A stretch of DNA of 53,062 nucleotides from an uncultured Porphyromonadaceae bacterium (GCA_964416825.1 CAYQFT010000003.1:1-53062), one strand, 5' to 3'; shown: positions 39,588 through 53,062, numbered from the stretch's first letter. Numbers and translations are program-made. Notes: generated by a model from the letters alone, not told the origin.

Positions 39588-40280
39588 TTAAAGTTGTACT
39601 TTTTTCCCTTTAGAACTGAAGGATTGAGTGCCCAGACCCTGTCCGATTAATTCCAACACAGCAAATTCATACGGATCAAATATCATCCCGAACAAACTGG
39701 TAAAACCAAAAGCATCCTTCATCTGCCCATTAAGGGGCGTTGATGGTCCTAACAGATAGAGTTCGGTTTTTGTTTTAGAATTGGCCAGGATGTCAGAAAG
39801 CGATTTGTTGATCAGACTCGTAGCGGAGATAATTACCTGGCAGGCATCAAGAATGGCTGACGGCAGTTCGGCTGCCGGCGACAGATCCTCGTTTTCTTTT
39901 TGCAGATCGAATGCTTTCAGCGGAAGGCCTTCGCTTTTAAACTTCTCAACAAGAGGCGGAAAGTATCCGATCATGACGGTGGGTTGACTCCTGCTGAACT
40001 GCACCCTGTCGAAGATGTCACCCGCGAGGGTATACTCCTGCTCGTAATTCAGTACGGCATTGGAATAGGCAAGCTGAAAAACTCTGTGATCCTGCCGGTT
40101 TAGATCGATTTTCGTAATCATTTGAGGATCAGATTCAAGAGTGATTCCCAGAGTAGAGGATACCCCAATCTGACCGTTTGCCAGCATGACCCCGAAATAC
40201 ATGTCACCTTTTACCGAAGCGAGTATCTTGCCAGCATCATAGGGGCACTTTTCTGCAAGAAATTCCAGTGGGTCTGTCAT
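39588..40280 (-). CDS. DUF364 (putative heavy-metal chelation domain) protein
   Basis: About 230 aa from Met at 40280. The C-terminal half (IISATSLINKSLSDIL ... LYLLGPSTPL ... FGMIF) matches the Rossmann-like DUF364 pattern as I remember it. The ORF is open to 40322. Confidence 0.55.
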   Translation of the reverse strand: MTDPLEFLAEKCPYDAGKILASVKGDMYFGVMLANGQIGVSSTLGITLESDPQMITKIDLNRQDHRVFQLAYSNAVLNYEQEYTLAGDIFDRVQFSRSQPTVMIGYFPPLVEKFKSEGLPLKAFDLQKENEDLSPAAELPSAILDACQVIISATSLINKSLSDILANSKTKTELYLLGPSTPLNGQMKDAFGFTSLFGMIFDPYEFAVLELIGQGLGTQSFSSKGKKVQL

Positions 40281-40430
40281 GGCTGTATTAAAAATCCAAA
40301 GGTAAAAAACTTGAGAACACATTTGCGATATGCATAAATATGCATAATGACATAAATCATCTAATCATAGGGGGTTGGGTGGCTTTAATGTGCTATTTTT
40401 GTCACAAACGAAAGCAAAAAATTAAGTTTT

Positions 40431-42587
40431 ATGGACGTAAAAACAATGCTTGAAACCCACAAACTTCTGGCTGAATTCCGATACGAAGTTACACCGCTTG
40501 ATAAAGGGTATACGGATAAGGTCCTCTATATTAATATCTCGGATAATACCTTTAAAATAAAGGATGTTCCGCCCGTAATGAAAGAAAAGTTCATCGGAGG
40601 GAAGGGATATGGCCTCAAGTTGCTATGGGATGCCACAAAACCTGATACCAAATGGAACGATCCGGAAAATGAGATCATTATTTCTTCGGGTCCCATTGCC
40701 GGGATTACACAGTATTCCGGCACCGGAAAATCATTGGTGGTGACCCTTTCTCCTGCAAGTAATTCTGTTACAGATAGTAATGCGGGCGGCTATTTCGGGC
40801 CGTTTGTAAAGTTCTCCGGTTTTGATGCCATCGAACTCCAGGGCAAGGCGAAATCCGAAGTGATCATAGTCATCGATGGAACCACCGGAACAGTTAGCAT
40901 CGAGGAGGCTCCCCGGGAGCCGCTTGACAGCCATGTGCTCAGCGAAATCCTGACAGAGATGTACGCATCGGACGCCGACAGCAAGCACAATGTCTCCGTG
41001 ATTACAACCGGAATGGCAGCAGAGCACAGCTGGGTCGGAATGATGAACTTCAGTTTCTTTGATAAGAAGAAAAATCGCGTACGCTTGAAGCAGGCCGGAC
41101 GCGGAGGAACCGGAACCGTTCTGAGGAACAAGAAGGTAAAAGCCATCGTCTGCAAGATTCCGGGTGTGAAAGGAAATCTCAACAATGTTGTTGACCTGCC
41201 GGCCATCATGGAAAGGGGGAAGCGGTTTAACACAGAAATCCGGGAACTGGATGACAAGCAATGTGAAATGCGCACCAAGGGAACTGCCCACCTAATGGAG
41301 ATCATGAATGACTATGATCTGCTGCCAACAATGAATTACAAATATGGTTCTCACCCTGATGCATACAAGATTGATTCGGAAATATGGAAATCCAGGTTTA
41401 AGCAAGGTACACCTGACGGTTGCTGGATTGGATGTAACATGGGCTGCGCAAAAGCAGTAGATCCCTATATCGTAAAAACGGGTCCCTATGCTGGTGAAGA
41501 CGTGCTGGTTGATGGCCCTGAATATGAGAATGCTGCCGGATTAGGTTCAAACTGTGGAATCTTTGATCCGGACTATATTATCGAGGCCAATTTCTATTGC
41601 GACACCTACGGTATGGATACCATCAGCTGGAGCACCATGATGGCTTTCATCATGGAGTGCTATGAAGCTGGTGTCCTCACCAAGGAACGGACCGGCGGTC
41701 TGGAGCTGAACTGGGGTAATACCGAAGCTGCAATTGAACTGCTGCACCAGGTTGCCCGCGGAGAAGGATTTGGGTTGATTGCAGGCAAAGGTATCCGCAA
41801 GATGAAGGAACATTTTACGAAGGAATTCGGTGCGGATCCGAAATTCCTGCAGGATATCGGAATGGAAAACAAGGGACTGGAATATTCAGAGTACGTGTCC
41901 AAGGAGTCGCTCGCCCAGCAGGGAGGTTTTGCCATGACAAACAAAGGCCCGCAACATGATGAAGCCTGGCTGATTTTTATGGATATGGTTAATAATCACA
42001 TTCCTACGTTTGAAGCCAAGGCTGAAGCCTTACACTATTTTCCGATGTTCAGAACCTGGTTTGGCCTGGTCGGATTATGCAAGCTTCCTTGGAATGATGT
42101 GGAACCCGCCAATAATGCCGAAACAAGCGAACCGGCCAAGGTCCCGGAACATGTTGATAATTACGTTACTATTTATAAAGCGGTTACGGGACGCGACTTT
42201 GACAACAAGCGTTTGATTGAAGACTCAGAGCGAGTCTATAATTTCCAGCGGGTTTTCAACCTGAGGAGAGGCTATGGCGTAAGAAAATATGACGCACAAC
42301 CCTTCAGGGCTGCCGGACCGGTTACTCAGGAAGAATATGAAAGCCGCGCCGAGCGCTATGATAAACAGCTGAAAGAACAGGTTGGCTTTGACCCTGAAGG
42401 AAAGACCACAGAGGAAAAGCATAATGCGCTCCGGGCATACCGCGAAGGACGTTATGAGCAACTCCTTGATGCCGTATACAATCGCAGGGGCTGGAATAAG
42501 AATGGCGTACCTAAGATCGAGTTTCTCAAGAAGATCGGCATGGACCTCCCGGAAGTACTGGAGGTGGTTGCGCCGTTTCAAGAGTAG
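40431..42587 (+). CDS. Aldehyde:ferredoxin oxidoreductase family (tungstopterin enzyme)
   Basis: 718 aa. AFOR_N start: DKVLYINISDNTFKIKDVP..KFIGGKGYGLKLLWD. Cluster/pterin region: DGCWIGCNMGCAK. Long AFOR_C domain. Confidence 0.88.
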   Translation: MDVKTMLETHKLLAEFRYEVTPLDKGYTDKVLYINISDNTFKIKDVPPVMKEKFIGGKGYGLKLLWDATKPDTKWNDPENEIIISSGPIAGITQYSGTGKSLVVTLSPASNSVTDSNAGGYFGPFVKFSGFDAIELQGKAKSEVIIVIDGTTGTVSIEEAPREPLDSHVLSEILTEMYASDADSKHNVSVITTGMAAEHSWVGMMNFSFFDKKKNRVRLKQAGRGGTGTVLRNKKVKAIVCKIPGVKGNLNNVVDLPAIMERGKRFNTEIRELDDKQCEMRTKGTAHLMEIMNDYDLLPTMNYKYGSHPDAYKIDSEIWKSRFKQGTPDGCWIGCNMGCAKAVDPYIVKTGPYAGEDVLVDGPEYENAAGLGSNCGIFDPDYIIEANFYCDTYGMDTISWSTMMAFIMECYEAGVLTKERTGGLELNWGNTEAAIELLHQVARGEGFGLIAGKGIRKMKEHFTKEFGADPKFLQDIGMENKGLEYSEYVSKESLAQQGGFAMTNKGPQHDEAWLIFMDMVNNHIPTFEAKAEALHYFPMFRTWFGLVGLCKLPWNDVEPANNAETSEPAKVPEHVDNYVTIYKAVTGRDFDNKRLIEDSERVYNFQRVFNLRRGYGVRKYDAQPFRAAGPVTQEEYESRAERYDKQLKEQVGFDPEGKTTEEKHNALRAYREGRYEQLLDAVYNRRGWNKNGVPKIEFLKKIGMDLPEVLEVVAPFQE

Positions 42588-42701: not shown

Positions 42702-44156
42702 ATGACTGAAGAAAGACTAGAGGCAAAGAGCAGGGAGCTGGGCGACGAAAAAATTCCCCGACTAATGTGGAAGTACTTTCTTCCGGCGTTTGTCGGGGTT
42801 ATCATGAATGCTACATACAACATCGTTGACCGGATCTTTATCGGTCAGGGTGTCGGGTCCATGGCGCTCTCCGGACTTAGTGTGGTTTTCCCAATTATGC
42901 TCATCGTGATGGCCTTTGGCATGCTGATTGGCATGGGTGCAGGGGTGCAGGTTTCCATCAATATGGGAAGGAAAGATTTCTCCCGGGCCGAAAAGGTGCT
43001 GGGGAACGGAGTATTCCTGATGGTTGTGGTGGGCCTTTTTGTCACCTTTCTGGGGTTCCTGATTAAGGGCCCGATGCTAAGAGCTTTCGGAGCCACCGAC
43101 GAAACCATCCGGTATGCTCAGGATTACCTCAACATCATCCTGGTCGGTGTGGTGTTTCAGATGATCGGCTTTGGCCTCAACAACATAATCCGCGCTGAAG
43201 GGAACGCCCGGATCGCCATGCTTTCCATGCTCCTGAGCGGTGGCATCAACCTGGTGCTGGACCCTATTTTTATTTTCGTTTTCGATCTTGGTGTTAAAGG
43301 AGCTGCTTATGCTACCGTCATTGCCATGATGGCACTGGATGTTTGGGTCCTACTGCATTTTACAAGCAAGCGTGCAGTAATCAGACTTCGGATGCCTAAT
43401 ATCAGGCCCAACTGGAAAATTATCGGGCTCATCATTTCCATCGGAATGGCGCCATTCTTTATGCAGTTGGGATCCAGCGCAGTTAATGCACTCTTCATGA
43501 ATCAGCTGATCAAACATGGAGGAGACCTTGCAGTCGGCGCCCTGGGGATCATTGCATCAGTAGCCCAATTATTGGTCATGTCAATGGTTGCCATTAACAT
43601 GGCCAGCCAGCCAATCGTGGGTTTCAATTTCGGAGCGCGGAACTACTCCCGCGTTAAGGAAACTGTCAGAACCGGGATTCTGGCCGCTACTGCTATTGGT
43701 GTTTTCGGATGGCTGATCGTCCAGATCTTCCCCCATTTTATTGTACGCCTGTTTAATTCCGATGACCCGGTGCTCTTTGATATCGCGGATAAAGGATTAC
43801 GTATCTTTTTGCTGACATTACCGCTGGTCGGTTTCCAGGTAATAGCCGCCAATTTTTTTCAGAGCATCGGTAAGGCTAAAATGGCCACCTTCCTGTCACT
43901 GCTGCGGCAACTGATCATACTGGTCCCGGCCCTGCTTATCCTGCCTGAGATATTCGGTCTGAAGGGAGTATGGCTTTGCAGCCCGGTGGCCGATGTGACT
44001 TCAGCCATCATTACCGGATCATTCCTCCTTTGGCAGGTCAGAAAACTCGGAACAGAGGATCCTGATAAGATTGCTGGCGGAAAGCCCCATCCCGGACCTG
44101 ATGATGATGCAGCAACACGTGCCGTTGAGTCTTTTCAGATTGTTACACCGGAATAA
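42702..44156 (+). CDS. MATE-family efflux transporter
   Basis: 484 aa with 12 predicted TM segments. N-terminal IPRLMWKYFLPAFVGVIMNATYNIVDRIFIGQ is typical of MatE. Confidence 0.85.
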   Translation: MTEERLEAKSRELGDEKIPRLMWKYFLPAFVGVIMNATYNIVDRIFIGQGVGSMALSGLSVVFPIMLIVMAFGMLIGMGAGVQVSINMGRKDFSRAEKVLGNGVFLMVVVGLFVTFLGFLIKGPMLRAFGATDETIRYAQDYLNIILVGVVFQMIGFGLNNIIRAEGNARIAMLSMLLSGGINLVLDPIFIFVFDLGVKGAAYATVIAMMALDVWVLLHFTSKRAVIRLRMPNIRPNWKIIGLIISIGMAPFFMQLGSSAVNALFMNQLIKHGGDLAVGALGIIASVAQLLVMSMVAINMASQPIVGFNFGARNYSRVKETVRTGILAATAIGVFGWLIVQIFPHFIVRLFNSDDPVLFDIADKGLRIFLLTLPLVGFQVIAANFFQSIGKAKMATFLSLLRQLIILVPALLILPEIFGLKGVWLCSPVADVTSAIITGSFLLWQVRKLGTEDPDKIAGGKPHPGPDDDAATRAVESFQIVTPE

Positions 44157-44188
44157 TCTTCTACTTTTATCAGGATAAATCAAACCTG

Positions 44189-46585
44189 ATGAATAAGCCT
44201 GTTTTTTACCTGCTGTGGCTGGCTCTTGCCGCATTCCTGTCCTTAACCTCCTGCCAGTTTCAAGGTGACTCTTCACCATTGAGCGAAGCGGTCTGGATTT
44301 CTGATAATGAACCTCTTCCTTCGGAAGACAGCCTTTTTTATCTGGATCATCCGGCTCCGCTTTTTCGGACTTCATTTTCAATAGAAGGCCAAGTTCGGAA
44401 GGCAGAATTGTACATAACGGCAGCCGGATATTATGAAACCTGGATAAACGGCCGGCCGGTTGGCGGCCAGCAGCTGGATCCAGCCTGGACCGACTACCGA
44501 AAGCGGATTTATGTAACCAAAATTGACGTTACGGATCAGTTAGTCAAGGGGGAAAATATCTGGGGAATCATGCCGGGGAACGGATTCTATAATCCCCTGC
44601 CGCTGAAAATGTGGGGTGGGCGGAATATCCGAAAAGCCCTACCAGTAGGGAAGCCTTCGGTCATTGCATCCCTGTGCGTGACTCTTCGGAGCGGGAAGGA
44701 AGTCAAGATATCAACATCCGGCGACTGGCTTTGGACTAGCGGACCGGTTATTCGCAATAGCGTATATCTGGGAGAATGGTTTGATGCCAGAAAGGCAACT
44801 GCGAATTGGTGTCTGCCCGGAACTGACCTTGTGGCCTGGAAGCCGGTTACCGCGGTGGAAGGGCCGGGTGGCAAGCTCCTGGAGGCAGGTTTTCCGCCCA
44901 TACGGGTGACTAAATGGATCGACCCAATTGCAATACGGAGTGATTCACTAAACCGGACGATTGTTGATTTCGGACAGAACCTGGCCGGTGTGCCAAGGAT
45001 CAGGATCAAGGCCGATCAGGGAGACACCATACGCTTCCGGTATGGTGAGCTTTTATATGCCGATGGCTCAGTCAACCCGATGACCACCGTCTGCGGTCAA
45101 ATCAAAAGGCATGGGGTAGGAGGGCCCGGTGCTCCCGATGTGGCTGAACAGGTCGATATATACATTGCCGGGGGCGCCGATCCTGAGTTTTTCCAGCCCC
45201 GTTTCACCTTCAATGGCTTCAGGTACATGGAAATATCAGGCTTGGACTATATTCCTGCAAAAGAAGATATTCAGGCAGGACGAATGAATACGGATGTGCA
45301 GGCTGCTGGCCGGATTAAGAGTTCATCGGAGTATCTGAATAAACTGAATGAAGTGTGCCAATGGACCTTCCTGAGCAATCTGTTCAGTGTTCAATCCGAT
45401 TGTCCTGCCCGTGAAAAGTTTGGTTATGGAGGTGATATTAATGCAACGGCAGAAGCATATATATACAATTTCGACATGCAGTCCATTTACCAGAAGGTGA
45501 TCTATGACTGGGTGGATGCCATGAAGAAGGATGGTTTCATCGACACGGCCCCTTTCGTGGGTATAGAGTACTGCGGCATCAGCTGGGAATCAGCCTTTTT
45601 GTTTTTACAGGATTGGCTTCTGATTCATTACCAGGATATTGATCTCATTCGTGAGCTCTATGAAATGGACCGTGAGTGGATGGATAAAGTGGCCAGGCTG
45701 CATCCGGGATTATTGGTGGATGACGGATTAAGCGACCATGAGAGCCTGCTGAAAGTACCGGTAGAACTTACCGGGACCTGCCATTACCTGCAGGCTGCCC
45801 GAACCATGGAACGTTTTGCCAGGCTTCTCGGAAAGGAAAGTGAAGCGGGAAGTTATGCAGGACTTGCAGAGAAGATCCGGACCGTTTTGATAGATAAATT
45901 CTGGAACGAGCCGGATATTGAGGTACCCAACAAACAGACTCTTCTGGCTTCTTTGCTGTACTTCAAAGTTTTGGATCCGGATCAGGAAAAACTAGCTCTG
46001 GCTCGGCTGCTAGAAACAATACAACAAAATGATTATCATGTAACTACTGGTATTTTTGGGACCAAGTACCTGCTAGATGCCCTCTCTTCAAACGGCCGTA
46101 CCGACATCGCCTACAAAATGGTTACCCAATCCGGTTTTCCGGGCTGGAAACATATGTTGGATCAGGGAGCTACGACATTGTGGGAAACGTGGAAGGAGAG
46201 TGACAATACCTATTCTCAGAACCATCCGATGTTCGGCTCCGTTTCAGAATGGTACATCAAATGGCTCGGTGGCATCCAGCCCGATCAGGAGAATCCGGGA
46301 TCCGGCGTAATCCTGTTGCAGCCCCGGCCGGTGAAGGACCTTGGTGCGCTCACATCGGAAAAAACAGTTGCAGGAGGTACCATTCGCAGCAAATGGTGGT
46401 GGGAAGGTGAAAAGCTTCATCTGGAATTTGATGTGCCACCGGGAAAAGAGGCTGAATGGGTTCCTGAATCGAAAAAATCCGCCATTGAGGTTATTGACCA
46501 TCCTAAAGGGTGGAGCAACAAAGAGTTAGCCGGTGAGGGACGGGTACGGCTTCATAAAAGCGGTAAGTACCATTTTATCATATAG
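44189..46585 (+). CDS. Alpha-L-rhamnosidase (GH78) with signal or lipoprotein leader
   Basis: 798 aa. Leader ...LSLTSCQ. The six-hairpin domain motif SDCPAREKFGYGGD and overall length fit GH78. Confidence 0.75.
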   Translation: MNKPVFYLLWLALAAFLSLTSCQFQGDSSPLSEAVWISDNEPLPSEDSLFYLDHPAPLFRTSFSIEGQVRKAELYITAAGYYETWINGRPVGGQQLDPAWTDYRKRIYVTKIDVTDQLVKGENIWGIMPGNGFYNPLPLKMWGGRNIRKALPVGKPSVIASLCVTLRSGKEVKISTSGDWLWTSGPVIRNSVYLGEWFDARKATANWCLPGTDLVAWKPVTAVEGPGGKLLEAGFPPIRVTKWIDPIAIRSDSLNRTIVDFGQNLAGVPRIRIKADQGDTIRFRYGELLYADGSVNPMTTVCGQIKRHGVGGPGAPDVAEQVDIYIAGGADPEFFQPRFTFNGFRYMEISGLDYIPAKEDIQAGRMNTDVQAAGRIKSSSEYLNKLNEVCQWTFLSNLFSVQSDCPAREKFGYGGDINATAEAYIYNFDMQSIYQKVIYDWVDAMKKDGFIDTAPFVGIEYCGISWESAFLFLQDWLLIHYQDIDLIRELYEMDREWMDKVARLHPGLLVDDGLSDHESLLKVPVELTGTCHYLQAARTMERFARLLGKESEAGSYAGLAEKIRTVLIDKFWNEPDIEVPNKQTLLASLLYFKVLDPDQEKLALARLLETIQQNDYHVTTGIFGTKYLLDALSSNGRTDIAYKMVTQSGFPGWKHMLDQGATTLWETWKESDNTYSQNHPMFGSVSEWYIKWLGGIQPDQENPGSGVILLQPRPVKDLGALTSEKTVAGGTIRSKWWWEGEKLHLEFDVPPGKEAEWVPESKKSAIEVIDHPKGWSNKELAGEGRVRLHKSGKYHFII

Positions 46586-46588
46586 ACT

Positions 46589-47539
46589 ATGAGAGGGTTA
46601 CGATTTTTGATAGCGGCATGTGCAGCAGGAATGACGTTAGGGCTATGCTCGTGCGGAAATCGGCAAAAAACTGGAAAATCTGAGACATTAACAATTATAC
46701 ATGCCGGAAGTCTTTCTGTTCCCATGCGGAATTTGAAGGATGCGTTTATTCTTGAAAACCCGGGAGTTGAAGTCAGGATGGAAGCAGCTGGAAGCATCCA
46801 GTGCATCCGTAAGATTACCGATTTACACCAGCCTTGTGATGTCCTTGCTGTTGCAGATTTTTCGCTGATTGATGATCTGATGTTTCCGGAATATGCGGAT
46901 TGGAATATCCGGTTCGCGACCAACGAGCTTTGCCTTGCATATACTGAAAAATCAAGAGGAAGCCAGGAAATTAATGCCAGCAACTGGTTCACTTTTTTGC
47001 TGAAACCTGATATCTCTTTTGGGCGGAGTGATCCGGATTCCGATCCCTGCGGTTACCGGACCCTTATGGCTCTTCAATTATCTGAAAAATACTATGCGGG
47101 TGGAATCGAATGGGAAGAGATCGCGACTAAGGATCAGCAATACATCCGGTCTAAAGAGACCGACCTGAATGCTTTGCTGGAATCCAGGGCTATTGATTAC
47201 ATTTTTACCTACCGGTCTGTGGCGGTTCAGCATAACTTCCTGCATATTAGGTTCCCTGATTCCATTAACCTCAGTGACCCGGGGCTGGATAACTGGTATT
47301 CAACCGTTTCAGTTGAAATACCCGGATCGGAACCCGGTAAACGCATTGTAAAAAACGGAGCTTCAATGTATTACGGGATTACAATACCGAAACATAGTGA
47401 AAATCCTGCCCTGGCGAAACGATTTATTCAGTTCATTCTGGATCCGGCAAAGGGAGGCAAAATCATCCGGGCAACCGGCCAAAATGTGATACCCCCGGCC
47501 TTCACAGAAAAAAGCATCGGAACCGATGGACTTTTTTAA
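46589..47539 (+). CDS. wtpA: Tungstate/molybdate ABC transporter substrate-binding lipoprotein, WtpA type
   Basis: 316 aa. Lipobox LGLCSC. Motifs: IIHAGSLSVPM, EAAGSIQCIRKIT, DPCGYRTLMALQL, YGITIPKHSENPALAKRFIQF, closely matching archaeal/bacterial WtpA as I recall it. Confidence 0.8.
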   Translation: MRGLRFLIAACAAGMTLGLCSCGNRQKTGKSETLTIIHAGSLSVPMRNLKDAFILENPGVEVRMEAAGSIQCIRKITDLHQPCDVLAVADFSLIDDLMFPEYADWNIRFATNELCLAYTEKSRGSQEINASNWFTFLLKPDISFGRSDPDSDPCGYRTLMALQLSEKYYAGGIEWEEIATKDQQYIRSKETDLNALLESRAIDYIFTYRSVAVQHNFLHIRFPDSINLSDPGLDNWYSTVSVEIPGSEPGKRIVKNGASMYYGITIPKHSENPALAKRFIQFILDPAKGGKIIRATGQNVIPPAFTEKSIGTDGLF

Positions 47540-47569
47540 CAATCCTGATAAAAATTAGGATTTGTGATA

Positions 47570-47597
47570 TTCGATATGTTTTTATTTGCATATCGAA
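47570..47597. promoter_or_regulatory. 9-bp perfect inverted repeat in the wtpA-TonB receptor spacer (candidate operator or RNA stem-loop)
   Basis: TTCGATATG-N10-CATATCGAA. The half-site ATATCG loosely resembles molybdate-regulator operator half-sites. No regulator gene in the window. Confidence 0.3.
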
Positions 47598-47614
47598 ACC
47601 ATAATTGAAACAAT

Positions 47615-49918
47615 ATGAAAAAAAGGATTCTTATTTCTGCTTTGCTTGCTTTGACACTCTTTTCAACCGCGATTGGCCAGATGGTTATCCGGGGGATTGT
47701 TATGGATGCTCAAAACGGACAAGCCTTATCGGGTGCAAATATTCAGGACAGCAGGACGGGCAAAGGTACTGCAGCCGCGACTGATGGCAAGTTTACCCTG
47801 GACCTTGGCAGCGATAAACAAACAACCCTCCGGATCAGTTTCCTGGGATATGAGCCGGAAGAGCTAAGCGTAAATAAGAAATCCGGAGCCAGCCTTATCG
47901 AAATAAAGTTGAGTCCAACCTCCATAAATTCCAATGCCGTGGTTGTGACCGGTACAAAGAACCAGCGGCGCATTCGCGAGATTCCCGGGCGCACGGAATG
48001 GCTGACGGCTAAACAGCTGGAGGCAATTCCCGCTACTCAGGCGGATGATTACCTGCGGACCTTGCCGGGTATTCAGGTCAGCCGGGAACATGGAATCCTG
48101 GATCACAACAGCACCGTTAGCATGCGAGGATTGGGGGGCAGCCAGCAGGGAAGGTATCTGGTCCTGATGGATGGAGTACCGATGAATAAGGCAGATGGCG
48201 GATCAGTGAACTGGAACAGCATCAATACGGATGATATTATGCAGGTAGAGGTTGCCAAAGGCCCCGGGTCTTCCCTTTATGGCGGCAATGCCATGGGCGG
48301 GGTCATGAACTATATCCGGAGAAAGCCGTCAACGCCCCTTGAAGGATCTGCCCATGTTGAATACGGGAGCCTGAATACCCGGCGCGGACGTTTTTCAATC
48401 GGTGGGAATCCTGCCTCACTCGATAACAAGTTCTATTGGTCGGTTCAGGGATTTGGCGCACTCAGCGATGGTTACAATCAGGTGCCTGAGGCGGATCGTG
48501 ATTCAACCGATGTTGCCGGTGGTTTGCAGGAATGGGGTGGGGGAATACGCGCCGGCTACCGGATCAATAAAAACCATCAGGTTGAAATAAGTTCCGGATA
48601 TTGGTCGGATCGCCGCGGGTCCGGAACAAAAATCTTCAGTGAAACCGGTACCTTTTTCGGTCATCAGGTTTGGGATAATTCAGTAAAATATACGGGCAGA
48701 GCCGGGAAAACCAACTGGTCAGCTGTTGGCTATATCACCGATGAAGATTACGAAAGGCTGAATGAATCCATCAAACCCAAGGGGAATTCATATACCTACA
48801 CATCCTATTCGGTAACCTCTGACCGGAAGGACAAGGGAATCATGCTCCATGCGGACCACAGGGCCGGTATAAACCTGATTTCGGTAGGCGGTGATTACAA
48901 GGATGGATCGGTTTTGGGCAAGGATGTCTATACAACTTCATCCGATGTTGTAAATAACATGGGAAAACTCCGGAGCTTTTCTGCCTATATTCAGGATCAG
49001 CTGACAGTTATTAATGAAAAACTTTTCCTTGTTGGCGGATTGCGCTACGACCGGGCGGTTTTTTATGACGGAGCTTTCTTTGTAACGGACCCGACATCGG
49101 CAACCAGCATACTCGGAGAATTGCAGAAACTGGAGCTGGAAAAGAATGTCTGGTCGGAGCTAAGTCCAAAACTGGCACTGAAATATTCCTCACCTGCCGG
49201 TATCGGAGCCTATATTTCCTACGGTCACGGTTTCAGGCCCTCCATCCTTGATGATATGTGCAGGTCGGGCTTCATCAGCGGAGGTTTTAAACGTGCAAAC
49301 CCTTACCTGGGGCCCGAGAAACTGAACAACTTCGAAATCGGTGCAGATATCCCCTTCCTTAAACGGTTAAATTTCTCAGCGAGCGCTTATTATTCAATGG
49401 GAAAGGATTTTATCTACCTGGTAAGTTCTGGAGATTCCATTTTGCAGGGAACGAAATTGAAGCCTCTTCTCGAAGCTCAAAACATATCCGGAGTCAGGAT
49501 CATGGGAATGGAAACCTCACTCCGCGCCGAACTCGGAAACGGGCTAACCGGCTATCTGAATTATGCCTATACAAATGCTCTGGTTTCCGATTATCAGCCT
49601 ACATTTGGCAAGGCTGACCTGAAAGGGAAGGTTCTTGTGTATGTTCCGGAACATCAGGTTTCAGCGGGAATGACCTGGAGAAATCGATGGGTGAACCTGC
49701 ATGTTCAGGGATCCTGGTTAAGTGAGCAATGGATGGATGATGTGAATACAGTTTCCATACCGGCCTTTTTCAAGCTGGATGCGAGAATCTGGAAGGAATA
49801 CAGAGGCTTTCAGGTTTTCATAAACGGACAGAATCTGACCAATACCGTTTATCTGGAAGGGCATGGATTATTATCGCTGGGACGTTTTATTACAGGAGGT
49901 ATCGGATATCAATTTTAA
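47615..49918 (+). CDS. TonB-dependent outer-membrane receptor with CarboxypepD_reg-like N-terminal domain
   Basis: 767 aa. Signal peptide, VIRGIVMDAQNGQALSGANI (carboxypeptidase-regulatory-like), plug region, and a beta-barrel ending in GGIGYQF. Confidence 0.85.
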   Translation: MKKRILISALLALTLFSTAIGQMVIRGIVMDAQNGQALSGANIQDSRTGKGTAAATDGKFTLDLGSDKQTTLRISFLGYEPEELSVNKKSGASLIEIKLSPTSINSNAVVVTGTKNQRRIREIPGRTEWLTAKQLEAIPATQADDYLRTLPGIQVSREHGILDHNSTVSMRGLGGSQQGRYLVLMDGVPMNKADGGSVNWNSINTDDIMQVEVAKGPGSSLYGGNAMGGVMNYIRRKPSTPLEGSAHVEYGSLNTRRGRFSIGGNPASLDNKFYWSVQGFGALSDGYNQVPEADRDSTDVAGGLQEWGGGIRAGYRINKNHQVEISSGYWSDRRGSGTKIFSETGTFFGHQVWDNSVKYTGRAGKTNWSAVGYITDEDYERLNESIKPKGNSYTYTSYSVTSDRKDKGIMLHADHRAGINLISVGGDYKDGSVLGKDVYTTSSDVVNNMGKLRSFSAYIQDQLTVINEKLFLVGGLRYDRAVFYDGAFFVTDPTSATSILGELQKLELEKNVWSELSPKLALKYSSPAGIGAYISYGHGFRPSILDDMCRSGFISGGFKRANPYLGPEKLNNFEIGADIPFLKRLNFSASAYYSMGKDFIYLVSSGDSILQGTKLKPLLEAQNISGVRIMGMETSLRAELGNGLTGYLNYAYTNALVSDYQPTFGKADLKGKVLVYVPEHQVSAGMTWRNRWVNLHVQGSWLSEQWMDDVNTVSIPAFFKLDARIWKEYRGFQVFINGQNLTNTVYLEGHGLLSLGRFITGGIGYQF

Positions 49919-49929
49919 AATTGTAAAAC

Positions 49930-50997
49930 ATGATTATGAAAATATTACCATTCATTTCGCTGGTGGCACTGCTGTTGCCGGCCTGTAATTCAGCCGAGAA
50001 ATCCGGGCAAGGACCATCCGGGATTCAGGTGGCAGCCATTGACTCCGCCGACCAGACCAATGATTTTTACGACAATGTGCCTGCATTTGATCTGCAGGGC
50101 TCACAGATAGTGGAAATTGGGGGCGAAGTCGCCGAAACCATGCAGGTTGACCTCAAGACTCTCCCCCGAAGAAGTGTTATCGTTAAGGAAACAAATTTCC
50201 TTGAGGGTAAGGTCGGCTTTGTTGGCGCCTATCGCTATGATGGGGTGTCTCTGTACGACATTCTCAACCGGGTTCAGGTGCGCAAGAAGAATCTGGAGGA
50301 ATTCAAGCCGATTATTGACCAGTACGTAGTTGTGTACGGAGCCTCCGGGGATTCGGTCGTGTTCAGCTGGGGCGAGATATACTACCCGATAGTGCCGCAT
50401 CAGATCATCATTGCTGACAAAGTTTTGAGGATTGTCCCGAGTAAAACAAAGGATCAGTGGCCGCTGCCGGTGAAAATGAAGGTTATTGCCGGGATTGACC
50501 TGGTTACCGAAAGGAACATTGACGACCCGGTCAGAATCATAGTCCGGACCGTCGGCATTCAGTATAAAGTGGATCGGACCGTTAAGTTTTGGGCGCCAGA
50601 TATGCTTCTCAAGGGCATGGGTGACCAGGAGGCAACCTTAACGGAGCTTCCATCGGGATTGAATCCGCAGGTACTGGATCAGGTTTTTTATGGACGGGGA
50701 ATGGGTATTCATGGAATCACACAGTTCAAAGGAGCATGGCTCAAAGATCTTCTTTTTGATAAATTGCCGCTGACACCGGAAAGAATAAAAGCCGGACTTT
50801 TCGTAATTGCCGCAGTTGACGGATATCGTTGTGCAATGACCTATTCAGAACTGATGAACCGGAATGACAATGCCGGGGTTCTTGTTATGGATGAGAATAA
50901 TTATGAAAATGCCGGAAAGTTCTCATGCATTTTCGGGGCTGATTTTTTCTCAGACCGCGCAATAAAATCCATGACGGAGATCCGGTTGGTACATTGA
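49930..50997 (+). CDS. Lipoprotein of unknown function with internal duplication
   Basis: 355 aa. Leader ...LLLPACNS. Two roughly 120-aa halves share the pattern G-x-V...L..LP...G...F/Y.G..L.D.L...V....DG. No family securely recognised. Confidence 0.5.
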   Translation: MIMKILPFISLVALLLPACNSAEKSGQGPSGIQVAAIDSADQTNDFYDNVPAFDLQGSQIVEIGGEVAETMQVDLKTLPRRSVIVKETNFLEGKVGFVGAYRYDGVSLYDILNRVQVRKKNLEEFKPIIDQYVVVYGASGDSVVFSWGEIYYPIVPHQIIIADKVLRIVPSKTKDQWPLPVKMKVIAGIDLVTERNIDDPVRIIVRTVGIQYKVDRTVKFWAPDMLLKGMGDQEATLTELPSGLNPQVLDQVFYGRGMGIHGITQFKGAWLKDLLFDKLPLTPERIKAGLFVIAAVDGYRCAMTYSELMNRNDNAGVLVMDENNYENAGKFSCIFGADFFSDRAIKSMTEIRLVH

Positions 50998-51033
50998 TGG
51001 TTACCTTAGCAGGGTAATTTTTCCGATGTACAG

Positions 51034-51831
51034 ATGAAGCGATCCGGACTAACGCTTGTGTTTGCAATCCTTGGCGGGTTGGTGCTTCTTTTTATCGTAG
51101 CCCCTCTTGCGGGTCTCTTCCTGAAGACTACTCCGGCTCAGTTTTTTGAAACGGCAGCAGATCAGGAGGTTACAGGAAGTATTTATCTTACGCTCGGGGT
51201 CTCCTTTGCAACTACCCTGGTTTTTGCTCTGGGTGCGGTACCGCTGGCTTTCCTGCTTGCACGGCATTCATTTAAGGGCAAGATTGTGGTTCAGTCGCTG
51301 GTGGACCTGCCAATAGTGATCCCGCACTCAGCCGCTGGTATCGCTTTGCTGGGAATGGTATCGAGGGATACCTGGCTCGGACAGGCTGCTTCTGCAATCG
51401 GGCTTGATTTTGTCGGGCATCCTTTAGGGATCGGTATCGCCATGGCTTTTGTGAGTGTCCCTTTCCTTATCCAGTCGGCCCAGGATGGATTTTTACAGGT
51501 GCCGGCAAGGCTTGAGCAGGCAGCCATGAACCTCGGCGCTTCCGGCTGGAAAACCTTTTTGACAATAAGCCTCCCATTGGCCCGAAGGAACATCCTGACC
51601 GGACTGGTGATGATGTTTTCCCGGGGGCTAAGCGAGTTTGGCGCTATCGTGATTATTGCTTATCATCCCATGGTGACACCAGTATTGATTTACGAGCGTT
51701 TCGGAGCATTCGGATTAAAATACTCCCGCCCTATAGCGGCGCTTTTTGTCCTGATATGCCTGGTGTTTTTTGTCATGCTCCGAATTCTTGCCAACAAACG
51801 TTACAATGATCCGGCTTCAAAACATATCTAA
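51034..51831 (+). CDS. wtpB: Tungstate/molybdate ABC transporter permease
   Basis: 265 aa, about 6 TM segments. EAA loop: LEQAAMNLGASGWKTFLTISLPLARRNILTG. Confidence 0.8.
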   Translation: MKRSGLTLVFAILGGLVLLFIVAPLAGLFLKTTPAQFFETAADQEVTGSIYLTLGVSFATTLVFALGAVPLAFLLARHSFKGKIVVQSLVDLPIVIPHSAAGIALLGMVSRDTWLGQAASAIGLDFVGHPLGIGIAMAFVSVPFLIQSAQDGFLQVPARLEQAAMNLGASGWKTFLTISLPLARRNILTGLVMMFSRGLSEFGAIVIIAYHPMVTPVLIYERFGAFGLKYSRPIAALFVLICLVFFVMLRILANKRYNDPASKHI

Positions 51832-52864
51832 AAAAATCGGGGACTTTAGGTTGCAGGGTATTACCCTTGAGATTACCGAGGGCAGCTATACGGTTTTACT
51901 GGGAGACTCAGGATCCGGAAAAACCCTTCTGCTTGAATTATTGGCAGGCCTTCACCGTGCGGACAGCGGCAAAATTTTGGTTGATGATGTTGAAGTCCAG
52001 GGCAGGCCAATACAGGACCGGCCTTTCGGAATCGTATTCCAGGATCTGGCTCTTTTCCCGCACATGAGTGTGCGTAAAAACATTTCCTATCCCCTATTTA
52101 TGAAAAAGGTGTTGCGATCCTCTGTTGATGATGAGGTCGCTGGGCTTGCCCGAAAATTTGAGATTTCCCACCTGCTCGATCGCTTCCCCGGAACTTTGTC
52201 AGGAGGGGAGAAGCAGCGGGTGGCAATTGCCCGCACACTGGCCACGCATCCGGCGTGTCTGCTGCTCGATGAACCCCTGACGGCCCTGGATGCAAGGATA
52301 CGCAAGGAGATAAAATCTGTTCTGCGGTGGCTGCATCGTGAAGGCCAGACTGTCATTCACGTTACCCATGATTACCAGGAAGCCATTGAACTGGCCAGTA
52401 ATATCGGCATCATGGAAAAGGGCCGGCTGATTCAGTTCGGGCCGGCAGAAGAGATTCTCCGCAATCCGGTTAACACGTTTACCGCACATTTTACCGGAAT
52501 CCGCAATTTCATTAAAGTCACACTGGAGAAGGATCCCGTAACCGGAAACACCCGGAGCATGACCGGGAATGGTATCCCGATTGCGTTAGAAACTCACAAA
52601 TCGGACGGGTGGGGGTATGTCATCATTCCCGAGGATGCCATCTTCCTCTCCACTCATCCGGTTGATACCAGTGCTGCCAATACGTTTCGGGGCATCATCA
52701 CGGACATGGCATCGGTGCCGCATGGGATCGAGGTGACCATTGATGCGGGATTTCCGCTGTATGCCCTGCTAACCAGGGAAGGAATCGACCGGCTGAACCT
52801 TGCGATCGGCTGCACCGTATGGGCAAGTTTCAAGGCCACCGCCGTGCGGTTTGTTAAGAAGTAG
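51806..52864 (+). CDS. wtpC: Tungstate/molybdate ABC transporter ATPase with C-terminal TOBE/Mop-like domain
   Basis: Start at ATG 51806 (MIRLQNISKK) preferred over the ORF start at 51770. Walker A GDSGSGKT, signature LSGGEKQRVAIAR, Walker B LLLDEPL. A roughly 120-aa C-terminal extension. Confidence 0.85.
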   Translation: MIRLQNISKKIGDFRLQGITLEITEGSYTVLLGDSGSGKTLLLELLAGLHRADSGKILVDDVEVQGRPIQDRPFGIVFQDLALFPHMSVRKNISYPLFMKKVLRSSVDDEVAGLARKFEISHLLDRFPGTLSGGEKQRVAIARTLATHPACLLLDEPLTALDARIRKEIKSVLRWLHREGQTVIHVTHDYQEAIELASNIGIMEKGRLIQFGPAEEILRNPVNTFTAHFTGIRNFIKVTLEKDPVTGNTRSMTGNGIPIALETHKSDGWGYVIIPEDAIFLSTHPVDTSAANTFRGIITDMASVPHGIEVTIDAGFPLYALLTREGIDRLNLAIGCTVWASFKATAVRFVKK

Positions 52865-52889
52865 GGGCGGACCCGTGGTCAGCCTGGAT

Positions 52890-52924
52890 CGTGACGCGTG
52901 ACGCGCTACCCGTGAAGCGAGATC
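52890..52924. repeat. Heptanucleotide tandem array (5 units)
   Basis: CGTGACG CGTGACG CGCTACC CGTGAAG CGAGATC, located 26 nt after the wtpC stop. The unit and gene-relative orientation match the array at 18461-18509. Confidence 0.8.
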
Positions 52925-53000
52925 CCCCATGCCCTTCTGCCCCTATGCCCCTATGCCCCTATGCCCCTATTCCCTTATGCCCCCATACCCCTATGCCCCA
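52924..53000. repeat. Octanucleotide tandem array (about 9.5 units) followed by a T run
   Basis: CCCCCATG CCCTTCTG CCCCTATG x3 CCCCTATT CCCTTATG CCCCCATA CCCCTATG CCCCA, then TTTTT. Confidence 0.85.
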
Positions 53001-53032
53001 TTTTTATTATCTTGCATTCAAATCTTAATCCC

Positions 53033-53062
53033 ATGTTTAAAACCAACGAATATTTCGACGGG
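53033..53062 (+). CDS. ppnP: Start of a PpnP/DUF1255-like nucleoside phosphorylase gene (only 10 codons in the window)
   Basis: MFKTNEYFDG resembles the conserved N-terminus of E. coli PpnP/YaiE (MLQSNEYFSG). Too short for certainty. Confidence 0.4.
   Translation, partial: MFKTNEYFDG

What the first reader, a model, noticed from the sequence alone, without database searches (positions are those of the whole stretch)
46589..52864. wtpA-wtpB-wtpC tungstate/molybdate transporter interrupted by a TonB-dependent receptor and a lipoprotein
**What the sequence shows.**
- The gene order is wtpA (lipoprotein SBP), TonB-dependent receptor, duplicated-domain lipoprotein, wtpB permease, wtpC ATPase (26-nt overlap with wtpB).
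- All five are on one strand, with 11-75-nt gaps.
- wtpA starts 3 nt after the GH78 stop.

**Background.** Oxyanions such as tungstate and molybdate are generally assumed to cross the outer membrane through porins.

**Inference.**
- A dedicated TBDT plus surface-lipoprotein pair, analogous to SusC/SusD logic, inside the operon suggests energised outer-membrane uptake. The cargo could be the oxyanion or a metallophore-bound form.
- This would feed the nearby AOR.
Basis: partly seen in the sequence, partly recalled or inferred. Interest (0 to 1): 0.6.

Follow-up and report, generated by a model that had tools for sequence, protein, structure and literature searches.

The report
TonB-powered tungsten/molybdenum uptake locus in Bacteroidales
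An outer-membrane TonB-dependent transporter and a novel periplasmic partner protein are conserved, co-regulated parts of the tungstate/molybdate import system of many anaerobic Bacteroidales. This suggests these trace oxyanions are pulled across the outer membrane actively rather than only leaking through porins.

Summary
The gene order wtpA, TonB-dependent transporter (TBDT), 355-aa lipoprotein, wtpB, wtpC is real, with the stated gaps.

The arrangement is not a one-off insertion.
- The lipoprotein family occurs in 88 of 401 sampled Bacteroidales genomes. Of these, 87 have WtpA and 86 have an AOR-family enzyme.
- In 61 loci it lies next to the TBDT and/or wtp genes in many permutations.
- Natural lipoprotein::WtpA fusion proteins exist.

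A 24-bp palindrome, CGWTATG-N10-CATAWCG, has the core and spacing of an experimentally validated ModE box.
- It sits 19 nt upstream of the TBDT start and 82 nt upstream of the nearby AOR gene.
- It recurs in front of TBDT, wtpA, AOR and regulator genes in 34 of 61 loci.

- It is a tandem, cysteine-less, sulfite-oxidase-like (Moco-domain fold) protein.
- It has no surface-export signal, and many orthologues are plain secreted proteins, so it is most likely periplasmic and works with WtpA.
- The likely surface partner is a different lipoprotein (DUF4466-like). It is encoded with a ModE-like regulator just beyond the window, on contig C296.

The cargo (free oxyanion or complexed W/Mo) and the W-versus-Mo preference remain untested. 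I found no paper describing this system, and the scan has not reported it on other DNA.

The parts
40326..40349 (.). ModE-type operator (CGATATGCATAAATATGCATAATG; 1 mismatch to CGWTATG-N10-CATAWCG). It lies in the divergent DUF364/AOR intergenic region, 82 nt upstream of the AOR ATG.
   Evidence: Equivalent sites lie 82-86 nt upstream of AOR in L037, L043 and L045.
40431..42587 (+). Aldehyde:ferredoxin oxidoreductase family enzyme (AFOR_N + AFOR_C). It is the likely consumer of the imported metal.
   Evidence: It shares the operator motif. AOR is found in 86 of 88 genomes that have the lipoprotein.
46589..47539 (+). WtpA, the tungstate/molybdate substrate-binding lipoprotein of the ABC importer.
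   Evidence: TIGR03730 scores 287 bits, above the 242.75 cut-off. SBP_bac_11.
47572..47595 (.). Perfect ModE-type operator CGATATG-N10-CATATCG, ending 19 nt before the TBDT start codon.
   Evidence: It is conserved at the same place in the three same-genus relatives L035-L037. Its core and spacing match the validated M. acetivorans ModE box RTTATGT-N8-RCATAAY (PMC12327845).
47615..49918 (+). TonB-dependent outer-membrane transporter (767 aa; N-terminal CarbopepD_reg domain, plug, 22-strand-type barrel). It belongs to an orthologous group tied to W/Mo loci.
   Evidence: No full-length paralogue in the own genome. Orthologues of 33-46% identity sit next to the lipoprotein in other genera. Tree.
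49930..50997 (+). 355-aa lipoprotein: a tandem sulfite-oxidase-like (Oxidored_molyb fold) protein with no cofactor cysteine. It is predicted to be a periplasmic partner of WtpA.
   Evidence: AF2 pLDDT 87.6. Foldseek to SorA/sulfite oxidase, E 4e-5. Weak PF00174 hits. No LES. Fusions to WtpA.
51034..51831 (+). WtpB-like ABC permease.
   Evidence: NF040839 is the best hit at 262 bits, below the 340 cut-off. BPD_transp_1.
51806..52864 (+). WtpC-like ABC ATPase with a C-terminal TOBE domain.
   Evidence: NF040840 is the best hit at 337 bits, below the 440 cut-off. ABC_tran + TOBE.

Best explanation
The window holds most of a multi-compartment tungsten/molybdenum acquisition system of anaerobic Bacteroidales. 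It is controlled by a short ModE-like repressor.

Proposed path:
1. A surface-exposed DUF4466-like lipoprotein captures a W/Mo species at the cell surface. In this genome it is on contig C296; in relatives a T9SS-anchored protein is also present.
2. The TonB-dependent transporter (47615-49918) moves the W/Mo species across the outer membrane, using the proton-motive force via TonB.
3. In the periplasm, the tandem sulfite-oxidase-like protein (49930-50997) works physically with WtpA. It may receive, hold or convert the metal species.
4. WtpA delivers the metal to the WtpBC ABC importer.

When W/Mo is sufficient, the ModE-like HTH protein binds the 24-bp box in front of the TBDT, and also the box in front of AOR, and adjusts expression.

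Shown here by sequence and comparative evidence:
- gene identities;
- conservation of the linkage;
- the shared operator;
- the predicted compartment of each protein;
- the fusions.

Inferred:
- the cargo of the TBDT;
- the direction of regulation;
- what the sulfite-oxidase-like protein does chemically.
For: (1) Linkage. In 61 loci from about 45 genera:
- the lipoprotein has the TBDT directly upstream in 30 and within 9 kb in 41;
- wtp genes lie within 9 kb in 42;
- one or the other is present in 53;
- the gene orders vary: WtpA-TBDT-LIPO-WtpBC, TBDT-LIPO-WtpABC, WtpA-LIPO-WtpBC and WtpABC-LIPO.

(2) Phyletic nesting in 401 Bacteroidales genomes:
- AOR is in 160 genomes;
- WtpA is in 132, of which 128 have AOR;
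- the lipoprotein is in 88, of which 87 have WtpA and 86 have AOR.

TBDT orthogroup frequency by genome class:
- 64 of 80 lipoprotein-positive genomes;
- 24 of 31 AOR-positive, WtpA-negative genomes;
- 12 of 45 WtpA-positive, lipoprotein-negative genomes;
- 6 of 75 genomes lacking all three.

(3) Operator.
- CGWTATG-N10-CATAWCG gives 49 hits in 34 of 61 loci, against 0-2 hits in 10 shuffles.
- The hits lie 1-90 nt upstream of the surface lipoprotein, HTH, TBDT, AOR, wtpA and ThiF genes.
- The window holds exactly two good sites, before the TBDT and before AOR.
- The core TTATG-N10-CATAA equals the EMSA-validated ModE box of M. acetivorans (PMC12327845).
- The HTH protein matches the ModE repressor domain TIGR00637, E 2e-22.

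(4) Compartments.
- Surface lipoprotein family: 42 of 46 have a lipobox followed by C-(K/S)-K-(D/E)(D/E).
- The 355-aa family: only 1 of 34 lipobox forms has two or more acidic residues there, and 27 of 61 showed no lipobox.

(5) Rosetta-stone fusions.
- 621-658-aa proteins made of the lipoprotein module plus WtpA occur in several clusters on many contigs. P0294 is 38% identical to the window protein over its mature length.
- In Chloroflexota, WtpA carries a C-terminal Oxidored_molyb-like domain and is followed by a lipoprotein-like gene.

(6) Where the lipoprotein sits with wtp genes but without a TBDT, 4 of 5 genomes carry the TBDT elsewhere, together with the surface lipoprotein. One of these loci (L105) also has the box.
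Against: - There are no expression, binding or transport data.
- The TBDT's nearest curated families are haem and siderophore receptors. All scores are far below cut-off, so sequence gives no substrate call.
- Tungstate and molybdate are small enough for porins, so a TBDT is not strictly required.
- The HTH protein lacks the molybdate-binding Mop domains of ModE, so metal responsiveness is inferred from regulon content only.
- 45 WtpA-positive genomes lack the lipoprotein and 33 of those also lack the TBDT, so the outer-membrane module is an optional add-on.
- The phyletic counts are not phylogenetically independent.
- wtpA itself has no box directly upstream in this genus, and it may be transcribed separately from TBDT-lipoprotein-wtpBC.
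Confidence: 0.68

Rival explanations
1. The TBDT module imports something other than W/Mo that is needed together with the tungsten enzyme, and it is merely co-regulated with wtp and AOR. Candidates are a pterin or cofactor fragment, haem or iron for the Fe-S-rich AOR, or an organic metallophore that need not carry W/Mo.
For: - The best curated TBDT matches are the haem/haemoglobin and siderophore receptor subfamilies (TIGR01785, 168 bits).
- The sulfite-oxidase fold normally binds a pterin cofactor.
- Distant relatives of the lipoprotein module are fused to a tetrapyrrole-methylase domain.
Against: - All those TBDT scores are far below cut-off.
- The lipoprotein module is fused to WtpA, an oxyanion-binding protein, not to a haem, B12 or pterin binder.
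- In many loci the TBDT sits inside or beside the WtpABC genes, and the locus shown for this genome contains no other inner-membrane importer gene.
- No iron-type regulation signal was seen.
Confidence: 0.14
2. The 355-aa protein is a periplasmic converting enzyme rather than a passive binding partner. It would release tungstate/molybdate from thio-, poly- or ligand-complexed forms brought in by the TBDT, so that WtpA can bind it. This refines the main model and does not exclude it.
For: - The fold is that of an oxyanion-handling enzyme family.
- Many polar residues are invariant: K119, N121, K172, R195, N196, H261, R311, R343 and several D/E.
- Carriers are anaerobes, and in such habitats Mo and W occur partly as thio-anions. 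Tetrathiomolybdate has been shown to be a usable Mo source for a methanogen (abstract of PMC11484787).
Against: - There is no invariant cysteine and no Tat signal, so no pterin cofactor is expected.
- No catalytic motif is known for this family.
- The fusion to WtpA fits a hand-over role equally well.
Confidence: 0.2
3. Chance juxtaposition: an unrelated TBDT-lipoprotein cassette was inserted into a wtp operon in this lineage.
For: - Unrelated GH78 and MATE genes do sit between AOR and wtpA, and their presence varies within the genus.
- The TBDT has its own 75-nt upstream spacer.
Against: - The linkage is conserved in many gene orders across dozens of genera.
- The operator is shared.
- The phyletic patterns are nested.
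- Gene fusions exist.
Confidence: 0.02

Closest known systems
WtpABC tungstate/molybdate ABC transporter (Pyrococcus furiosus type; NCBIfam TIGR03730, NF040839, NF040840)
   Same: The substrate-binding protein, permease and TOBE-bearing ATPase are the best family matches. WtpA passes the TIGR03730 cut-off.
   Different: Here the system is in a diderm bacterium. It is extended by an outer-membrane TBDT, a surface lipoprotein and a periplasmic sulfite-oxidase-like partner. WtpB and WtpC score below the archaeal equivalog cut-offs.
Bacteroidota TBDT-plus-surface-lipoprotein uptake systems (SusC/SusD, BtuB/BtuG, HmuR/HmuY; from general knowledge)
   Same: A TBDT is encoded next to lipoproteins with the Bacteroidota surface-export signal, for capture of a scarce nutrient. 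The DUF4466-like lipoprotein fills that slot.
   Different: The TBDT is not SusC-type. The adjacent 355-aa lipoprotein is neither SusD-like nor predicted to be surface-exposed. The regulon and the inner-membrane partner point to W/Mo, a cargo I found no report of for any TBDT in the searched literature.
ModE regulon and ModE box (E. coli; Methanosarcina acetivorans RTTATGT-N8-RCATAAY, PMC12327845)
   Same: The DNA-binding domain is homologous (TIGR00637, E 2e-22). The palindrome has the same core and spacing. The targets are W/Mo transport genes and a metal-dependent enzyme.
   Different: The regulator is only 128-135 aa and has no Mop domain, so how it senses the metal is unknown. The regulon includes a TBDT and surface proteins.
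Sulfite oxidase / SorA / YedY molybdenum-cofactor domain (Pfam PF00174)
   Same: Fold similarity (Foldseek probability 1.0, E 4e-5). Weak PF00174 hits occur in 12 of 56 family members, and hits above the cut-off occur in distant relatives.
   Different: It has two tandem copies, no cofactor-ligand cysteine, a Sec/lipoprotein signal instead of Tat, and no dimerisation domain. It is very unlikely to carry Moco.
Pseudomonas aeruginosa T6SS-secreted ModA with outer-membrane IcmP (as summarised in PMC11734730)
   Same: It is another case where molybdate acquisition involves a dedicated outer-membrane component rather than porins alone.
   Different: The machinery is entirely different: a T6SS-secreted binding protein with a non-TBDT outer-membrane protein.

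Membership tests
WtpABC tungstate transporter | Substrate-binding protein matches the WtpA equivalog model above its cut-off | tested here: met
   TIGR03730 scores 287.1 bits against a cut-off of 242.75. The second model, NF003196, scores 333.9 against 355, just below.
WtpABC tungstate transporter | Permease and ATPase match the WtpB and WtpC equivalogs above their cut-offs | tested here: not met
   NF040839 scores 261.8 against 340, and NF040840 scores 337 against 440. Both are the best hits but below cut-off. The proteins are WtpB/C-like and are not certified equivalogs.
WtpABC tungstate transporter | High-affinity binding of tungstate over molybdate | not testable with these tools
   This needs ITC or a competition assay.
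TonB-dependent transporter | Plug domain plus C-terminal beta-barrel | tested here: met
   PF07715 at 89.6 bits and PF00593 at 145.3 bits.
SusC/RagA-type TBDT | Match to TIGR04056 above cut-off; about 1000 aa | tested here: not met
   134.4 bits against a cut-off of 368.25. The protein is 767 aa.
SusD-like surface lipoprotein | SusD/RagB fold and surface exposure | tested here: not met
   No SusD Pfam hit. The fold is sulfite-oxidase-like. There is no acidic export signal after the lipobox Cys.
Sulfite oxidase family (Oxidored_molyb) enzymes | Moco-binding domain fold | tested here: met
   Foldseek to 2blf, 2ca4 and 3r18, E 4e-5 to 2e-3, but TM is only 0.29 over the whole two-domain protein. 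PF00174 is weak in 12 of 56 members.
Sulfite oxidase family (Oxidored_molyb) enzymes | Conserved cysteine ligand to the metal, and Tat export of the folded cofactor protein | tested here: not met
   The list of invariant columns has no Cys. The signal peptide has no twin-arginine motif.
ModE-type regulation | ModE N-terminal DNA-binding domain | tested here: inconclusive
   TIGR00637 gives E 2.3e-22 and 78.9 bits, below the 98.5 cut-off. There are two copies in the genome.
ModE-type regulation | Molybdate-binding Mop/TOBE domains in the regulator | tested here: not met
   The protein is 128-135 aa and holds the HTH domain only.
ModE-type regulation | Palindromic box upstream of W/Mo genes | tested here: met
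   49 sites in 34 of 61 loci against 0-2 in shuffles. Same core as the validated RTTATGT-N8-RCATAAY box.
Bacteroidota surface-exposed lipoproteins | Lipobox Cys followed by an acidic export signal | tested here: met
   This applies to the DUF4466-like lipoprotein family, not the 355-aa protein. 30 of 42 have two or more D/E at +2..+6, typically C-K-K-D/E-D/E. The own-genome copy reads C-GKDNG, a weaker match.

The most novel reading that the evidence does not exclude
Anaerobic Bacteroidales actively scavenge tungsten (and perhaps molybdenum) with a dedicated TonB-dependent outer-membrane system. Its cargo is not the free oxyanion but an environmentally dominant complexed form, such as thiotungstate/thiomolybdate or an organic W/Mo chelate. 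The widespread cofactor-less sulfite-oxidase-like protein would be a new kind of periplasmic 'metal-releasing' partner that hands tungstate to WtpA. The same module works with WtpA in Chloroflexota without any outer-membrane part.
Probability: 0.2. Interest if true: 0.88.

Novelty: new variant of a known kind. Interest (0 to 1): 0.72.

Why it matters
Textbook accounts have tungstate and molybdate crossing the outer membrane passively. No TonB-dependent route for them turned up in the literature I could search.

A conserved, ModE-box-controlled TBDT module in W/Mo loci would have several consequences.
- It would add a new cargo class to TonB-dependent transport.
- It would explain how gut, sediment and digester Bacteroidales supply tungsten enzymes such as AOR at trace metal levels.
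- It would give a function to three large 'hypothetical' families: the tandem sulfite-oxidase-like WtpA partner, the DUF4466-like surface lipoprotein and the short ModE-like regulators.
- It yields a directly testable regulon and operator for tungsten/molybdenum homeostasis in Bacteroidota.

Tried and rejected
- Rfam scan of the whole window for a Moco/Tuco riboswitch: no family reached threshold.
- Sigma-70 promoter and terminator scan: no more sites than in shuffles, and uninformative for Bacteroidota.
- Profile search of the lipoprotein family against PDB sequences: no hit even at E 10. Only fold comparison worked.
- Single-protein scan of genome contigs: only 3 loci. I replaced it with the genome search plus fetch from genomes.
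- Phylum-wide even sample: only 2 of 401 genomes. The family is concentrated in one order.
- Literature searches for a TBDT linked to tungstate, molybdate, WtpA or ModE, and for DUF4466: nothing relevant.
Both were re-sent corrected.
- I considered and rejected the idea that the lipoprotein is a true Moco/Wco enzyme whose presence merely demands W/Mo. It has no Tat signal and no conserved Cys, and it is fused to an SBP.
- I considered and rejected SusD-like or BtuG-like roles for the 355-aa protein.

Full report
**1. Observation**

The five ORFs exist as described.
- 46589-47539 is WtpA. TIGR03730 scores 287 bits against a cut-off of 242.75, and SBP_bac_11 also hits.
- 47615-49918 is a 767-aa TonB-dependent transporter with CarbopepD_reg_2, Plug and barrel domains.
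- 49930-50997 is a 355-aa lipoprotein with no Pfam or NCBIfam family.
- 51034-51831 has WtpB as its best hit.
- 51806-52864 has WtpC as its best hit and carries a TOBE domain.

The spacing also matches.
- The gaps are 75, 11 and 36 nt.
- The wtpB/wtpC overlap is 26 nt.
- wtpA starts 3 nt after the GH78 stop.
- Upstream lie GH78, a MATE exporter and an AOR-family gene.
- No Rfam family, including the Moco riboswitch, is present in the window.

**2. The window truncates the locus**

The window is a complete contig of an 89%-complete MAG.
- In the three same-genus relatives the operon continues after wtpC with ppnP, a ModE-like HTH gene and, in two of them, a second lipoprotein.
- In this genome those genes are on contig C296 (L095): ppnP at 5-307, HTH at 314-721, lipoprotein at 776-1645.
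- C296 is separated from the window's end by a multi-copy short repeat that breaks many contigs.

**3. Conservation**

The 355-aa protein belongs to a large, unnamed family.
- 1625 hits were found in the 90% clusters.
- A search of the representative library with a profile of the family alignment gave 274 50%-identity clusters at E<=1e-10.
- An even sample of its phylum gave 2 of 401 genomes.
- An even sample of its order gave 88 of 401 genomes, in 60 of 236 genera.

I cut out +-9 kb around 60 of these loci, mapped the window's proteins onto them, and clustered all ORFs. Counting the window as the 61st locus:
- the TBDT is directly upstream on the same strand in 30 loci, mostly with gaps under 50 nt, and within 9 kb in 41;
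- a wtp gene is within 9 kb in 42;
- at least one of the two is present in 53.

The gene orders differ between lineages: WtpA-TBDT-LIPO-WtpBC, TBDT-LIPO-WtpABC, WtpA-LIPO-WtpBC and WtpABC-LIPO. Repeated linkage through rearrangement is the classical sign of a functional association.

Other recurrent neighbours are:
- a ~300-aa lipoprotein (30 loci, one or two copies just upstream of the TBDT);
- a T9SS-sorted protein in the same slot (16 loci);
- a ~130-aa HTH protein (23 loci, usually just upstream of wtpA);
- AOR, a ThiF/MoeB-like gene, an aldehyde dehydrogenase and ppnP.

**4. Phyletic patterns**

In the same 401 genomes:
- AOR (PF01314) is found in 160;
- WtpA is found in 132, of which 128 have AOR;
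- the lipoprotein is found in 88, of which 87 have WtpA and 86 have AOR.

The window's TBDT has no full-length paralogue in its own genome. The best paralogue is 29% identical over the N-terminal 310 residues only. Single full-length matches of 33-46% identity occur in other genera.

At E<=1e-60 this orthogroup is present in:
- 64 of 80 lipoprotein-positive genomes;
- 24 of 31 AOR-positive, WtpA-negative genomes;
- 12 of 45 WtpA-positive, lipoprotein-negative genomes;
- 6 of 75 genomes with none of the three.

Additional context:
- In the AOR-positive, WtpA-negative genomes the TBDT lies in a module HTH-c14-membrane protein-surface lipoprotein-TBDT. Of the ten such loci I fetched, four have AOR in the stretch and four carry the operator.
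- These 'type 1' TBDTs form one well-supported clade inside the family (100/99).
- Where the lipoprotein sits with wtp genes but without a TBDT, 4 of 5 genomes have the TBDT elsewhere, together with the surface lipoprotein.
- Related genomes are not independent, so these ratios are descriptive only.

**5. Shared operator**

The 75-nt spacer before the TBDT holds a perfect palindrome, CGATATG-N10-CATATCG, at 47572-47595. The search pattern was CGWTATG-N10-CATAWCG, allowing one mismatch.
- It hits 49 times in 34 of the 61 loci (1.1 Mb), against 0-2 hits in ten shuffles.
- The sites lie 1-90 nt upstream of the surface-lipoprotein, HTH, TBDT, AOR, wtpA, T9SS-protein and ThiF genes.
- In the window only two sites have one mismatch or fewer: the one before the TBDT, and one at 40326-40349, 82 nt before the AOR start.
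- A whole-genome scan adds a site before an ALDH-HTH-XdhC-DUF364 operon on contig C68.

The HTH protein matches the ModE repressor DNA-binding domain (TIGR00637, E 2e-22, below cut-off) but has no Mop domain. The box has the same core and spacing (TTATG-N10-CATAA) as the ModE box RTTATGT-N8-RCATAAY, which was shown by EMSA to bind M. acetivorans ModE (PMC12327845).

This is the strongest evidence that the TBDT answers to the W/Mo regulon and not to iron or glycans.

**6. What the 355-aa protein is**

Structure and fold:
- AlphaFold2 with 56 homologues gives a confident model (pLDDT 87.6, pTM 0.84).
- Foldseek's only significant PDB matches are SorA sulfite dehydrogenase and chicken sulfite oxidase. 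E is 4e-5 to 2e-3 and probability is 0.92-1.0, but TM is only 0.29, so the similarity is at domain level.
- 12 of 56 members hit PF00174 weakly. Distant relatives exceed its cut-off.
- The two halves align to each other.
- No cysteine is invariant, and the signal is Sec/lipoprotein type. It is therefore not a Moco enzyme.

Predicted compartment:
- 27 of 61 orthologues showed no lipobox in my scan. At least 19 of these have a plain 'A-Q' signal-peptidase-I site and no Cys, and the mature protein begins at the conserved TNDFYDN motif.
- In the 34 lipobox forms, the residues after the Cys are N/Q/T/K-rich. They average 0.41 acidic residues, and only 1 of 34 has two or more.
- By contrast, the ~300-aa lipoprotein family shows C-(K/S)-K-(D/E)(D/E) in most members. 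It averages 2.1 acidic residues, and 30 of 42 have two or more. By general knowledge this is the Bacteroidota lipoprotein export signal.

The 355-aa protein is therefore predicted to be periplasmic, and the ~300-aa lipoprotein to be surface-exposed. The AF2 model of the latter (pLDDT 85.9) best matches a DUF4466 protein of Parabacteroides merdae (4ei0, E 7e-10).

**7. Fusions**

- The representative search uncovered proteins of 621-658 aa in which the whole lipoprotein module is followed by a WtpA domain without its own signal peptide. They fall into several 90% clusters, and one cluster is seen on 44 contigs.
- P0294, from a Rikenellaceae MAG, is 38% identical to the window protein over residues 43-354 (E 7e-70). 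Its gene lies near AOR, ThiF and ThiS.
- In Chloroflexota, WtpA carries a C-terminal Oxidored_molyb-like domain. It is followed by a 331-aa Oxidored_molyb-like gene, ABC transporter genes with TOBE, and DUF364.
- The module is thus a partner of WtpA, also in a phylum where no TBDT lies in the locus.

**8. Model and limits**

The best-supported reading is a four-stage import path:
1. surface capture by the DUF4466-like lipoprotein, plus a T9SS protein in relatives;
2. TonB-energised passage through the TBDT;
3. periplasmic handling by the sulfite-oxidase-like protein together with WtpA;
4. import by WtpBC.

All of this would be under a short ModE-like repressor that also controls AOR.

What is not established:
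- the identity of the cargo;
- W versus Mo. The genome also has three PF00384 genes, two xanthine-dehydrogenase-type genes and MoeA, while no ModA was found;
- how a Mop-less regulator senses metal;
- whether wtpA is co-transcribed with the downstream genes;
- the chemistry of the sulfite-oxidase-like protein.

I found no paper describing a TBDT for W/Mo or any of these accessory families. The held library is incomplete, however.

**9. Verdict**

- It is wrong in casting the adjacent lipoprotein as a SusD-like surface partner.
- I rate this a new variant of a known kind of system (TBDT-based micronutrient scavenging). It has a new cargo class and a new periplasmic accessory family.

Noticed in passing
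P0299-P0304; HTH/WtpA overlaps in L043, L045, L087, L092, L093: Proteins of 416-418 aa fuse the ModE-like HTH domain to a WtpA-type substrate-binding domain. These may be one-component W/Mo sensors. They could explain how the Mop-less regulator family senses metal.
   Followed up: partly
P0218, P0222, P0241, P0283, P0237: Distant relatives of about 590 aa carry an N-terminal signal/anchor, the same tandem Oxidored_molyb-like module (above the Pfam cut-off) and a C-terminal tetrapyrrole-methylase (TP_methylase) domain. This is an unexplained architecture.
   Followed up: no
L107-L116; also L041, L047, L048, L055, L063, L083: A second module, HTH-c14 (244 aa, weak TiaS/methanogenesis-marker-11 similarity)-c11mem (196-aa polytopic membrane protein)-surface lipoprotein-TBDT, is found in AOR-positive genomes that lack WtpA. 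The small membrane protein may be an alternative inner-membrane route for W/Mo.
   Followed up: partly
Own genome contig C68:9961-13483: An operon of aldehyde dehydrogenase, a second ModE-like HTH, XdhC-like and DUF364 genes is preceded by a ModE-type box (C68:13460-13483). The same ALDH family is inserted between wtpA and the lipoprotein in L043, L045, L057, L087 and L092.
   Followed up: partly
L068, L070, L071, L082, L090: A pair of membrane proteins lies between the lipoprotein and wtpA in five loci. They are c17, with faint CcsB/cytochrome-c-assembly similarity, and c15. Function unknown.
   Followed up: no
window 39588-40322 (-), L122 12027-12746, C68:9961-10661: DUF364 ('putative heavy-metal chelation') recurs with the W/Mo regulon in three places. 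It is divergent from AOR with the shared box, it is in the C68 operon, and it is in the Chloroflexota wtp locus.
   Followed up: partly
window 42702-46585 versus L036, L037: The MATE and GH78 genes between AOR and wtpA vary within the genus. GH78 is absent in L037, and an extra 234-aa gene is present in L036. They look like passengers. wtpA has no ModE box directly upstream in this genus.
   Followed up: partly
window 52865-53062 and many contig ends: The short repeat after wtpC matches dozens of places in the assembly, often at contig ends. This explains why the locus is split between contigs C3 and C296.
   Followed up: partly
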